Positions 9,478 to 10,964 are shown, counted from the first letter of the stretch. The stretch: DNA of 36,308 bases from Paraglomus brasilianum (GCA_910592345.1 CAJVPI010000295.1:1-36308), one strand, 5' to 3'. The notes: generated by a model from the sequence alone, not told the origin. Translations and numbers: made by a program.

Positions 9478-10964
9478 TTACCAAAATAACAATAACCTGC
9501 TCATAAAGGTCGGTTTACTATCTTTTAGCATAAATTTTTGGTGACTCTTGTGCAAGTCTCTCAGCGATTTTATCAAATAGTTAAAATCTGCTTTAGTAAC
9601 TATAACCAAACCACCTAACTGCGCTTGAACCTCTAATAAACCACTCTCATATTCGTCCAAAACCTTAAGTATTTTGTCTAAATTCCTGCCCGTATTTTGA
9701 AGACACTTCAAAATATCGACAGTTGCATCCAGTTCACGTTTCGCCATTGATACATCAGCCTGGCTTTTAAACCAGTCCAAATGAATATACCTTTCTGCCT
9801 CTCTCAGCCCGCTGAATATATATTTTTCAACATCATCACGCTGAGTATCCGCGTCCAACATTGCGTCCTTTGCTTTTTGTACATGTGTACGAAACTCTTT
9901 GACTATTCTAAGCATTTTCCCAATTCTTTCTTTAAAAAAACTGGATTTATCGGCAAACTTGGCATCAAATATGTTCAACAGTGTTCCGATTTCCGTATGA
10001 AAAGTTTCAAAAACGTAGGACCCTTTCCGATACATATCTTTGAGGCTGTTACCAGCACGTATAACTTTTCCACTAAACTGTCGAAGTCCATTGGCAATTT
10101 GCCTACCAGTGGATGAGAAAGCAGGACTCCTTTCAATTTTATTTGCAGCTATTTTAAATTCAGGCGTATGCTCCATAATGGCATCTGATGCTGCGTTTGA
10201 AATAAAAATTTATGAGTAAACTCTCATGTGTTTATGCGCGTACGTAAATTACCATTTATATATGCCTACCTGGAATATCGACAGAGTTAATTTGTACGAA
10301 TATATCATTGGTAAGAGCTGCGAGACTACCAACTGGACTGTTTGGCTTCACTGGCGGCATCAAAAACTTTTTCGATTGTAAAAAATTTTTAATTAACAAA
10401 TGAATGTGTAGTAAAAATATCAAAATATTATTTTTATTACCTGCCAGTAAAGTATGGCAATCACAATAGTGCTCAGAGTCAAAAATCGTTGGGGATTGCG
10501 CAAGCCGTAGTCGAACAAAAACCAAAAATTTTGAGAAGCGTAAATATACCAAGAACCATATCGATATCGAAATACATCGCTGCGTTGTTCAGCCATGTCG
10601 ATAATTCGTTCCAAAGTTGGTTGAAACTCTGCGTTATTGGTTTGTCGGTTACTTATTGTATCCTTAATGGTTTTGGTGAAAGCAGGCGGGAGGGTTTGCA
10701 AAAACATATCTATTTTTTGCGATTCCGTCACACCGTTTAGTCCAGCAATATTAGCAAGCCTGAGAAATTCCCTGACAAAGGTGGTAAAATTTTCAATTCT
10801 ATCCCATCTAAGGTGATGTAACTTGTTACGCGCGGTAGCATGTTCAGTCTAGTAAATAAAGTTGATAATTGTCAGCCCCATTACTATCTTAATTGACTAC
10901 TAACATAAATATTTTAAGTCGGGACTAAATACAGAGATATTCATACGTTATCATTTGTTGCCAT
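9478..10964 (-). CDS. TM/coiled-coil family copy A with N-terminal Gag-capsid-like domain (~411 aa); exons 10964-10947, 10848-10441, 10366-10270, 10190-9478
   Basis: MATNDN|GTATGA..GCTGAC..TAG|TEHATARNKLHHLRWDR.. reads in frame through LYWQ|GTAATA, then FLMPPVKPNSP..DIP G|GTAGGC..CAG| into the 232-aa helical ORF. The exon 3 acceptor (AAG) is the least certain. Confidence 0.7.

What the first reader, a model, noticed from the sequence alone, without database searches (positions are those of the whole stretch)
10560..10964. Retrotransposon Gag-capsid-like domain captured as a spliced, in-frame N-terminus
Seen: only copy A has ~390 extra nt between the family promoter and the TM segment, with its own ATG micro-exon and a clean intron. 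It encodes ARNKLHHLRWDRIENFTTFVREFLRLANIAG..QKIDMFLQTLP..PTLERIIDMAEQ with no stop into the TM segment. Known: this fits the Ty3/gypsy capsid C-terminal pattern (ARxxLxxL..F..EF..LA..K...F...LP); domesticated capsids include Arc, PEG10, PNMA and the restriction factor Fv1. No pol or LTR flanks it. Inference: a membrane-tethered capsid domain acting as decoy or sensor for retroelement particles, or as an oligomerisation module.
Basis: partly seen in the sequence, partly recalled or inferred. Interest (0 to 1): 0.75.

Follow-up and report, generated by a model that had tools for sequence, protein, structure and literature searches.

The report
Tamed retrotransposon capsid on toxin-like bundle
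A spliced, transcribed gene of root-symbiont (arbuscular mycorrhizal) fungi, shared by two distant orders, joins a domain predicted to fold like half of a retrotransposon shell protein to a membrane anchor and a bundle predicted to resemble the body of bacterial pore-forming toxins; the captured shell piece likely clusters the protein in a membrane.

Summary
Copy A is a four-exon gene for a 411-aa protein. Transcript-type contigs join the insert to the body in 7 of 8 runs laid, and the micro-exon junction shows in 3 of 8. The N-terminal ~97 residues are predicted (pLDDT 87.5) to fold as a retroelement capsid C-terminal domain: Copia capsid Z 12.6, and the top 30 structural matches are all capsids. 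The Ty3/gypsy label is not established. Two things change the reading. First, the fusion is not a gain of copy A: named records of 7 Paraglomus and Gigasporaceae species carry it, and copies B and C most likely lost it. Second, the body behind the membrane anchor is predicted to be a five-helix ClyA/Hbl-type tail bundle (Z 16.7; Foldseek E 9e-5) with no hydrophobic head. No close Gag relative was found, which weakens the decoy idea. Best reading, function untested: an ancient domesticated capsid domain that clusters a membrane-anchored ClyA-like protein, as SCAN does for zinc-finger proteins. My literature searches found no such protein.

The parts
10947..10964 (-). Gene A exon 1, 18-nt micro-exon with the start codon (aa 1-6)
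   Evidence: Sequence; loose ends matching it at 10848 in 3 of 8 runs; similar short N-terminus in P. occultum P0002
10849..10946 (-). Intron 1, 98 nt, GT..AG
   Evidence: no contig cover; environmental relatives P0016/P0023/P0024 show the same 3' intron stretch read as protein by their gene caller
10558..10848 (-). Capsid C-terminal-domain-like region, aa 7-103, five helices
   Evidence: Model pLDDT 87.5; Copia capsid Z 12.6, rmsd 2.1, 91 of 102 aligned; 16 residues invariant in 8 named rows
10495..10557 (-). Aromatic linker helix, aa 104-124, low model confidence
   Evidence: 22 of 29 identical to P. occultum over aa 98-126, 10-18% to Gigasporaceae
10441..10494 (-). Single hydrophobic segment, likely a signal-anchor, aa 125-142
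   Evidence: Kyte-Doolittle 19-mer 1.72; next best 1.02; shared with copies B, C, D
10270..10366 (-). Gene A exon 3 (aa 143-174): proline-rich linker and first helix of the bundle
   Evidence: Both junctions seen in contigs
9478..10190 (-). Gene A exon 4 (aa 175-411): rest of the ClyA/Hbl-like five-helix tail bundle (aa 148-405 in all)
   Evidence: Model; Hbl-B Z 16.7, rmsd 3.1, 246 aligned; ClyA Foldseek E 8.8e-5
9763..9783 (-). Short aromatic loop (aa 311-317) where, by helix order, the toxin head domain would sit
   Evidence: Inferred from helix order and lengths (against passages of PMC3769298); a Trp is kept there in 7 of 7 homologues listed
12528..13568 (-). Paralog B, 297 aa, anchor plus bundle, no capsid domain
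   Evidence: Model equals P0004; part covered in 1 of 4 runs
15070..16104 (-). Paralog C, no capsid domain; frameshifted in an A-run near 15742-15749 in this assembly
   Evidence: the 99.7% identical locus L001 is open there
18210..19112 (-). Paralog D, 279 aa, older duplicate, no capsid domain
   Evidence: junction 18938/18874 in 1 of 4 runs; relative L003 at 82% nt
19113..19285 (-). Leader of D with weak DNA likeness to the capsid exon of A (possible decayed remnant; not established)
   Evidence: 0 of 1000 shuffles reach the score; top of 402 windows for D, but only third for the L003 leader, and a two-row nhmmer profile did not find it

Best explanation
Gene A is a spliced, transcribed host gene, shared by Paraglomerales and Diversisporales, whose 411-aa product joins a domain predicted to be a retroelement capsid C-terminal domain, one hydrophobic anchor and a bundle predicted to be a headless ClyA/Hbl-type tail; the capsid domain likely works as a self-association module that clusters the anchored bundle. 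Steps. (1) Shown: exon structure, open frame, transcript across insert, anchor and body, homologues with the same layout in 7 named species. (2) Predicted: both folds. (3) Inferred: one capture of the CA-CTD by an anchor-plus-bundle gene before the two orders split, with later losses in young tandem duplicates (B, C, P. occultum 8395). (4) Inferred: type II topology, capsid domain in the cytosol and bundle in the lumen or outside the cell. (5) Inferred, untested: CA-CTD to CA-CTD contacts dimerise or ring the protein, as SCAN does, and so set the oligomeric state of a bundle that acts at a membrane surface (lipid binding, tethering or perturbation). It would not be a stand-alone pore-former, because the hydrophobic head is absent.
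For: Transcript and frame. Capsid fold: the top 30 of 48,161 chains are all retroelement or retroviral capsid chains; first unrelated row Z 5.8 against 12.6; Foldseek agrees in rank; weak Pfam hits point the same way in 9 of 15 (PF22909) and 4 of 15 (PF03732) aligned members; Atlas features 0.91-0.94 with gag and caulimovirus-coat clusters. Age and constraint: full-length homologues in P. occultum, Cetraspora (2), Racocetra, Gigaspora rosea and G. margarita, Dentiscutata (orders). The domain is 60 of 91 identical to P. occultum against 120 of 192 for the body, and 31-34% to Gigasporaceae against 46-47%. 4 of 4 coding differences seen in the runs are synonymous, 2 of them in the capsid exon, against 3 of 7 in copy D. 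Loss rather than gain: one clade of domain-bearers is rejected, p-AU 2.5e-5, 8 rows against 5. Body fold: 9 of the top 10 rows are ClyA-family toxin chains, Z 13.3-16.7; 5 Foldseek matches under E 0.001, all ClyA. Against a standing decoy: a phmmer scan of 1.84 billion representatives gave 3 hits, all of this family, no Gag. Precedent: SCAN is a captured capsid domain kept for dimerisation (10.1101/2025.03.03.638093, abstract and section 7 read).
Against: No function was tested. No Foldseek match of the capsid domain reaches E 0.001 (best 0.098), all Pfam scores are below cut-off, and identity to solved capsids is at most 20%; small helical domains can converge. The full-length model is middling (pLDDT 72.9, pTM 0.55, 19 sequences), and helical bundles can reach Z 13-14 by arrangement alone (note). 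Topology rests on one hydrophobic window; the charge bias is clear in Paraglomus and G. rosea but not in Cetraspora or Racocetra, and the Dentiscutata gene model has no clear anchor. Capsid-less paralogs persist (D and its relative L003), so the domain is dispensable for some copies. The range is patchy: no Glomerales or Archaeosporales record came up (one search scored only the 7995 best candidates), so transfer between lineages is not excluded. dN/dS was not computed, for want of orthologous DNA.
Confidence: 0.5

Rival explanations
1. Capsid decoy or sensor wired to a toxin-fold effector: the cytosolic CA-CTD co-assembles with Gag lattices of invading retroelements, either poisoning assembly at a membrane or clustering the ClyA-like bundles so that a compartment is permeabilised or sealed off.
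For: CA-CTD-only restriction factors p22/p18 and Drt2 are among the nearest structures (Z 9.2-9.4) and act by subunit exchange with capsid (PMC12530519 passages; PMC10951436 abstract). The partner domain has a pore-forming-toxin fold, and the gene sits in a tandem array that turns over. A decayed Ty3-type pol lies 14 kb away.
Against: Drt2 and p18 restriction needs a near-homotypic interface, with three residues deciding specificity, yet no Gag came within E 0.001 of this domain. The domain is as conserved as the body between Paraglomus species, and the 4 coding differences seen in the runs are silent, unlike an arms-race surface. The bundle has no hydrophobic head.
Confidence: 0.2
2. Adaptor plus carrier: the capsid domain has become a docking site for host cytosolic partners (as with Arc lobes or Drosophila Gagr) and the five-helix bundle holds a lipid or other hydrophobic ligand, like the fungal pink-coloured protein.
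For: Pleurotus PsPCP, a 225-aa five-helix fungal protein with a polyene in its central cavity (PMC11311226 passages), matches the body at Z 13.8 over 213 residues. Gagr is a domesticated gag with an acquired transmembrane segment, proposed as an ER adaptor (PMC8956099 passages).
Against: The bacterial ClyA-family chains score higher than PsPCP. No cavity or ligand was examined here, and no partner is known. This reading and the best one are not exclusive.
Confidence: 0.2
3. The N-terminal domain is an ordinary small helical domain that only resembles a capsid, with no retroelement ancestry.
For: No significant sequence hit to any Gag; Foldseek E-values above 0.001.
Against: Methods of different kinds converge on capsids: Pfam, language-model features, Foldseek ranks, and a Z gap of 12.6 against 5.8 with nearly the whole domain aligned at 2.1 A.
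Confidence: 0.07
4. A recent, neutral transposon insertion in copy A that happens to be in frame or is not translated.
For: Only A has it in this window; short upstream ATG frames precede the start.
Against: Same fusion, in frame, in 7 named species of 2 orders; spliced transcripts; no in-frame ATG between Met91 and the anchor in A.
Confidence: 0.03

Closest known systems
SCAN domain of tetrapod zinc-finger proteins
   Same: A capsid C-terminal domain captured alone as the N-terminal module of an unrelated host protein and kept over long times (10.1101/2025.03.03.638093, abstract and section 7 read).
   Different: SCAN sits on nuclear DNA-binding proteins and is domain-swapped (title of a cited paper). 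This model matches unswapped CTDs over ~90 residues and SCAN only over 40-50 (Z 5.2). Here the partner is a membrane anchor plus ClyA-like bundle in fungi.
Yeast Ty1 p22/p18 and Drt2 CA-CTD restriction factors
   Same: Fungal, CA-CTD only, no NTD; Z 9.2-9.4 to the model.
   Different: They are close in sequence to a live target element; this domain has no detectable Gag relative, is fused to anchor and bundle, has introns and spans two orders.
Drosophila Gagr
   Same: Domesticated gag that acquired a transmembrane segment (PMC8956099 and PMC7231272, passages read).
   Different: Gagr is insect-specific, of gypsy origin, and carries a low-complexity tail, not a folded toxin-like bundle.
ClyA superfamily alpha-pore-forming toxins (ClyA, Hbl-B, NheA, AhlB, Cry6Aa, Mak, Smh)
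   Same: Predicted five-helix tail bundle, Z 13.3-16.7; helix lengths 46, 55, 48 and 23 against 49, 57, 49 and 30 for NheA helices B, C, F and G.
   Different: No head domain or beta-tongue (no strand in the model, no second hydrophobic stretch); permanently anchored by its own N-terminal segment; identity 8-13%; no lytic activity shown.
Pleurotus pink-coloured protein PsPCP (8II8)
   Same: Fungal five-helix bundle of similar size; Z 13.8, 213 aligned.
   Different: A pigment-binding protein; this protein adds an anchor and a capsid domain. Homology is not shown.
Arc, PEG10, PNMA/MOAP1, Fv1
   Same: Domesticated Gag capsid domains; their CTDs match at Z 6-11 (Fv1 named from a passage of PMC13709905, not among the structural rows).
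   Different: Arc, PEG10 and PNMA2 keep both capsid lobes and can build shells (PNMA2 and dArc capsid entries; otherwise recalled); this protein has only the CTD and is membrane-anchored.

Membership tests
Retroelement/retroviral capsid C-terminal domain | CA-CTD helical fold over the whole domain | tested here: met
   Predicted model pLDDT 87.5; Z 12.6, rmsd 2.1, 91 of 102 to Copia aa 93-186; top 30 rows all capsids
Retroelement/retroviral capsid C-terminal domain | Sequence match above a curated Gag or coat family cut-off | tested here: inconclusive
   PF22909 24.6 bits against 27; PF03732 15.9 against 24.1
Retroelement/retroviral capsid C-terminal domain | Major-homology-region-like motif before helix 2 (motif recalled, not from a call) | tested here: inconclusive
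   Invariant W21, E25, F27, F34, L37 in 8 named rows; Trp stands where the recalled motif has Gln
Retroelement/retroviral capsid C-terminal domain | Self-association through CTD-CTD interfaces | not testable with these tools
   Needs a biophysical assay
Ty3/gypsy (Metaviridae) Gag as donor | Closer to Ty3/gypsy capsids than to Ty1/copia or caulimovirid ones | tested here: inconclusive
   Copia 12.6, PEG10 11.0, Ty1' 9.8, Ty3 9.0; Pfam best is caulimovirid; BFVD best is a fungal metavirus, E 0.023
Intact LTR retrotransposon | LTRs, pol ORF, CA-NTD and nucleocapsid next to the domain | tested here: not met
   Listed repeats around A are copies of the tandem gene unit (20 largest of 45 families shown); no pol frame beside it; only 6 residues precede the domain; three spliceosomal introns
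Domesticated gag-derived host gene | Open frame kept in homologues of several species | tested here: met
   7 named species, 2 orders; neighbour paralog on the same 4682-nt contig in P. occultum
Domesticated gag-derived host gene | Transcribed and spliced as a host gene | tested here: met
Domesticated gag-derived host gene | Purifying selection (dN/dS) | tested here: inconclusive
   No orthologous DNA was obtained; protein conservation and 4 of 4 synonymous differences agree with it but the numbers are small
Domesticated gag-derived host gene | Demonstrated host function | not testable with these tools
   Needs experiments
CA-CTD restriction factor (p22/p18, Drt2) | A co-resident element with a matching CA-CTD interface | tested here: inconclusive
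   No Gag at E 0.001 and none in the window, but the genome is not held and single-sequence search is shallow
CA-CTD restriction factor (p22/p18, Drt2) | Binds virus-like particles and lowers retromobility | not testable with these tools
   Needs experiments
ClyA superfamily alpha-pore-forming toxin | Five-helix tail bundle | tested here: met
   (predicted model)
ClyA superfamily alpha-pore-forming toxin | Head domain with two helices and a beta-tongue or hydrophobic hairpin (PMC3769298 passages) | tested here: not met
   No strand in the model, a 7-residue loop between the long helices; second-best hydropathy window 0.6-1.0 in 10 sequences
ClyA superfamily alpha-pore-forming toxin | Amphipathic N-terminal helix that lines the pore | tested here: inconclusive
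   Hydrophobic moment 0.16 for the anchor and 0.27 for helix 153-169; the anchor is plainly apolar in Gigasporaceae
ClyA superfamily alpha-pore-forming toxin | Pore or lytic activity | not testable with these tools
   Needs experiments

The most novel reading that the evidence does not exclude
A fungal innate-immune receptor, probably older than 400 million years, built from two captured parts: a retroelement capsid half that senses or co-assembles with Gag lattices in the cytosol, and a pore-forming-toxin-fold bundle across the membrane that is clustered by this binding and permeabilises or walls off a compartment of the coenocytic hypha. This would be capsid-triggered membrane execution, with the capsid-less tandem paralogs as partner subunits in the manner of multi-component ClyA toxins.
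Probability: 0.15. Interest if true: 0.93.

Novelty: new variant of a known kind. Interest (0 to 1): 0.76.

Why it matters
In the papers I saw, domesticated capsid domains come from animals (SCAN, Arc, PEG10, PNMA, Gagr, Fv1) and from a yeast species (Drt2). This one is shared by two orders of arbuscular mycorrhizal fungi. The Gigaspora plus Rhizophagus clade alone is dated 580-408 Ma (PMC12592215, passage read) and Paraglomus is called early-branching (title of a cited paper), so under vertical descent it would be among the oldest capsid captures on record. It also exposes an unannotated fungal family with a ClyA/Hbl-like fold. The natural pair of capsid-bearing (A) and capsid-less (B, D) paralogs makes the role of a captured capsid domain directly testable by simple comparison. 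No paper on this protein or layout turned up in searches (listings only; open-access library, subscription journals mostly missing; supplements not read).

Tried and rejected
No whole genome is held, so other Gag copies in this fungus could not be sought. Sequence searches of solved structures found nothing significant for the domain or the family. A two-copy complex job on the capsid domain gave no verdict (score 0.00, run without the alignment): no evidence either way. DNA scans for the capsid exon in metagenome contigs (138 pattern matches, none confirmed) and for the family in prokaryote genomes (47, none), viral contigs (126, none) and plasmids found no relative, so no donor of either domain was identified; these scans reach close relatives only. 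The family scan of metagenome contigs gave 3 loci of 269 matches, all C- or D-type, none with the capsid exon, so no dN/dS. The Atlas query for the body did not complete. Earlier findings of this scan: none, by place, sequence or words. D leader as a capsid remnant: seen by eye first, then tested; 0 of 1000 shuffles for D and L002, 1 of 1000 for L003, none of the 5 other stretches (B and C leaders, 3 controls) stood out; top of 402 windows for D but third for L003, and missed by nhmmer: left open. The weak Protein L and intermediate-filament hits were dismissed as chance. My first exon bounds for A and for B, C, D were off and were corrected.

Full report
Setting. The window is AT-rich eukaryotic DNA with intron-bearing genes. 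It holds four tandem minus-strand copies of one gene family, A (9478-10964), B (12528-13568), C (15070-16104) and D (18210-19112). Search outputs list Paraglomus brasilianum proteins on a contig of the window's length, two of which equal my models of A and B letter for letter. No whole genome is held.

Observation. A has about 465 nt more than B and C between the shared upstream block and the hydrophobic segment: an 18-nt first exon, a 98-nt GT..AG intron and about 350 nt of open frame. With exons 10964-10947, 10848-10441, 10366-10270 and 10190-9478 the gene gives 411 aa without a stop. I laid 8 of 24 listed runs, from 7 studies, all selected for holding the gene; only one is on record as RNA, but all are spliced and none covers an intron of A. 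The last junction is in 8 of 8, the middle one in 7 of 8, and a single contig spans insert, anchor and body in 7 of 8. Three runs of three studies end at 10848 with 13-16 loose letters that match exon 1. No contig reaches the ATG, and two short upstream frames lie just before it, so the start of translation is inferred; the P. occultum homologue begins at the same place.

The N-terminal domain. Pfam gives weak hits below cut-off to a caulimovirus coat domain (E 3.3e-5; 9 of 15 aligned members) and to Retrotrans_gag (4 of 15). Atlas features point to gag and caulimovirus-coat clusters at 0.91-0.94. AlphaFold2 on a 15-row alignment gives five helices at pLDDT 87.5. Against 48,161 solved chains the top 30 rows are all retroelement or retroviral capsids, led by Drosophila Copia capsid aa 93-186 (Z 12.6, rmsd 2.1, 91 of 102); the first unrelated row has Z 5.8. 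A second look ranks PEG10 CTD 11.0, Ty1' CTD 9.8, Drt2 and p22 9.2-9.4, Ty3 9.0 and Arc C-lobe 9.0. Foldseek orders the same families first, but with no E-value under 0.001. So the domain is very likely a capsid C-terminal domain standing alone, without the N-terminal lobe; which superfamily gave it is open. No pol or LTR flanks it; the nearest retroelement remnant, a decayed Ty3-type pol, is 14 kb away, and no other capsid-like frame is in the window.

Age and polarity. The same layout (capsid domain, hydrophobic segment, body) is in named records of P. occultum, Cetraspora pellucida (two), Racocetra persica, Gigaspora rosea, G. margarita and Dentiscutata erythropus (the last gene model lacks a clear anchor), that is Paraglomerales and Diversisporales, and the domain plus anchor is in unnamed environmental fragments at about 70%. 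The domain is 66% identical to P. occultum (body 62%) and 31-34% to Gigasporaceae (body 46-47%); 16 positions are invariant in 8 named rows. All 4 coding differences in A seen among the runs are synonymous, against 3 of 7 in D. In trees of the body alone, B and C group with A and the P. occultum pair (100/99), and a clade of the 8 domain-bearers against 5 others is rejected (p-AU 2.5e-5; three changes needed, 13 rows, the two environmental rows left out as their N-termini are unknown, L003 added; the test was run after I had seen the tree). One old capture with later losses in B/C and P. occultum 8395 is the simplest account. D and L003 form a long branch of unsure place; whether they predate the capture or lost it is open, and the DNA likeness of D's leader to the capsid exon is suggestive only. 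The range is patchy, with no Glomerales record found, so limited search depth, loss or transfer all remain possible.

The body. The full-length model (pLDDT 72.9, pTM 0.55) has, after the anchor, long helices at 153-194 (broken), 203-248, 256-310, 318-365 and 374-396. Nine of the ten best structural matches are ClyA-family pore-forming toxin chains: Hbl-B Z 16.7 (rmsd 3.1, 246 aligned), Hbl-L1 16.4, AhlB 15.8, Cry6Aa 15.2; the other is the fungal pigment-binding protein PsPCP, 13.8. Foldseek gives ClyA at E 8.8e-5. Helical bundles can score up to 13-14 by arrangement alone (note), so the margin is moderate, but the two programs name one family and the helix lengths match the tail helices described for NheA (PMC3769298, passages). 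The head domain with its beta-tongue, which that paper ties to membrane binding, is missing: a seven-residue loop with a conserved Trp takes its place, and there is no second hydrophobic stretch. I therefore file the body as ClyA-like in fold and not as a toxin.

How it likely works. With no signal peptide before the domain and one hydrophobic segment, the protein is likely a type II membrane protein, capsid domain in the cytosol and bundle on the far side; the charge bias supports this in Paraglomus and G. rosea only. A lone CA-CTD has two known uses. Yeast p22/p18 and Drt2 poison capsid assembly, but need a closely matching interface on a live element (PMC12530519, passages; PMC10951436, abstract). 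SCAN is kept as a dimerisation module on unrelated proteins (10.1101/2025.03.03.638093, abstract and section 7). Here no Gag came within E 0.001 in 1.84 billion representatives, and the domain is conserved like the body, which fits a structural module better than a decoy. I put 0.5 on clustering of an anchored ClyA-like bundle, 0.2 on a capsid sensor or decoy coupled to the bundle, 0.2 on adaptor plus lipid carrier (PsPCP, PMC11311226 passages; Gagr, PMC8956099 passages), 0.07 on convergence and 0.03 on a neutral insert. None of these functions was tested.

Novelty. Capture of a capsid domain is a known kind of event, and a gag with an acquired membrane anchor is known (Gagr). A capsid CTD fused through an anchor to a ClyA-like bundle, shared by two orders of mycorrhizal fungi, did not appear in my searches (listings only, open-access library, supplements not read), and the deposited proteins carry no functional names. 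If inherited vertically it is older than the Gigaspora-Rhizophagus split, dated 580-408 Ma (PMC12592215, passage). Verdict: real, ancient and expressed; a new variant of a known kind; interest 0.76. Other papers opened: PMC7231272 (passages), PMC13709905 (passages), PMC11952901 (passages), PMC6602965 (short abstract only).

Noticed in passing
window 24548-26328, minus strand: Decayed Ty3/gypsy-type pol (RNase H-like, Tf2-like SH3, chromodomain) lying between two 90%-identical cytochrome-P450-like gene copies (about 21870-23780 and 27070-28850; P450 label from recalled motifs, not from a family scan).
   Followed up: partly
window 15742-15749 (copy C) and L001: Copy C is frameshifted in an A-run in this assembly, while a 99.7% identical metagenome locus is open there: assembly slip or strain-specific break.
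   Followed up: partly
window 12660-12900 (B) and 15200-15430 (C): B and C carry an internal duplication of about 25 residues at the loop where the toxin head would sit, replacing the aromatic tip in B.
   Followed up: no
window 11000-12400, 13600-14900, 16150-17200: More than 1 kb of non-coding DNA upstream of A, B and C is 85-94% alike between copies, so the duplicated unit is about 2.5-3.1 kb.
   Followed up: no
window 19026 (D) and L003 about 529-597: D lacks the intron that follows the anchor in A, B and C; its relative L003 keeps a GT donor at that place, suggesting intron loss in D.
   Followed up: partly
P0012, P0013, P0014 (Gigasporaceae homologues): Short tandem duplications flank the capsid domain: a repeated N-terminal block in Racocetra and a ten-residue repeat before the anchor in Gigaspora and Dentiscutata.
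   Followed up: no
window 29179-31710 minus; 6923-7980 plus; 32392-33276 minus: A multi-exon protein kinase gene (Pkinase E 5e-28), a phosphoesterase gene (PF04185) and an unnamed hydrophobic 294-aa frame.
   Followed up: no
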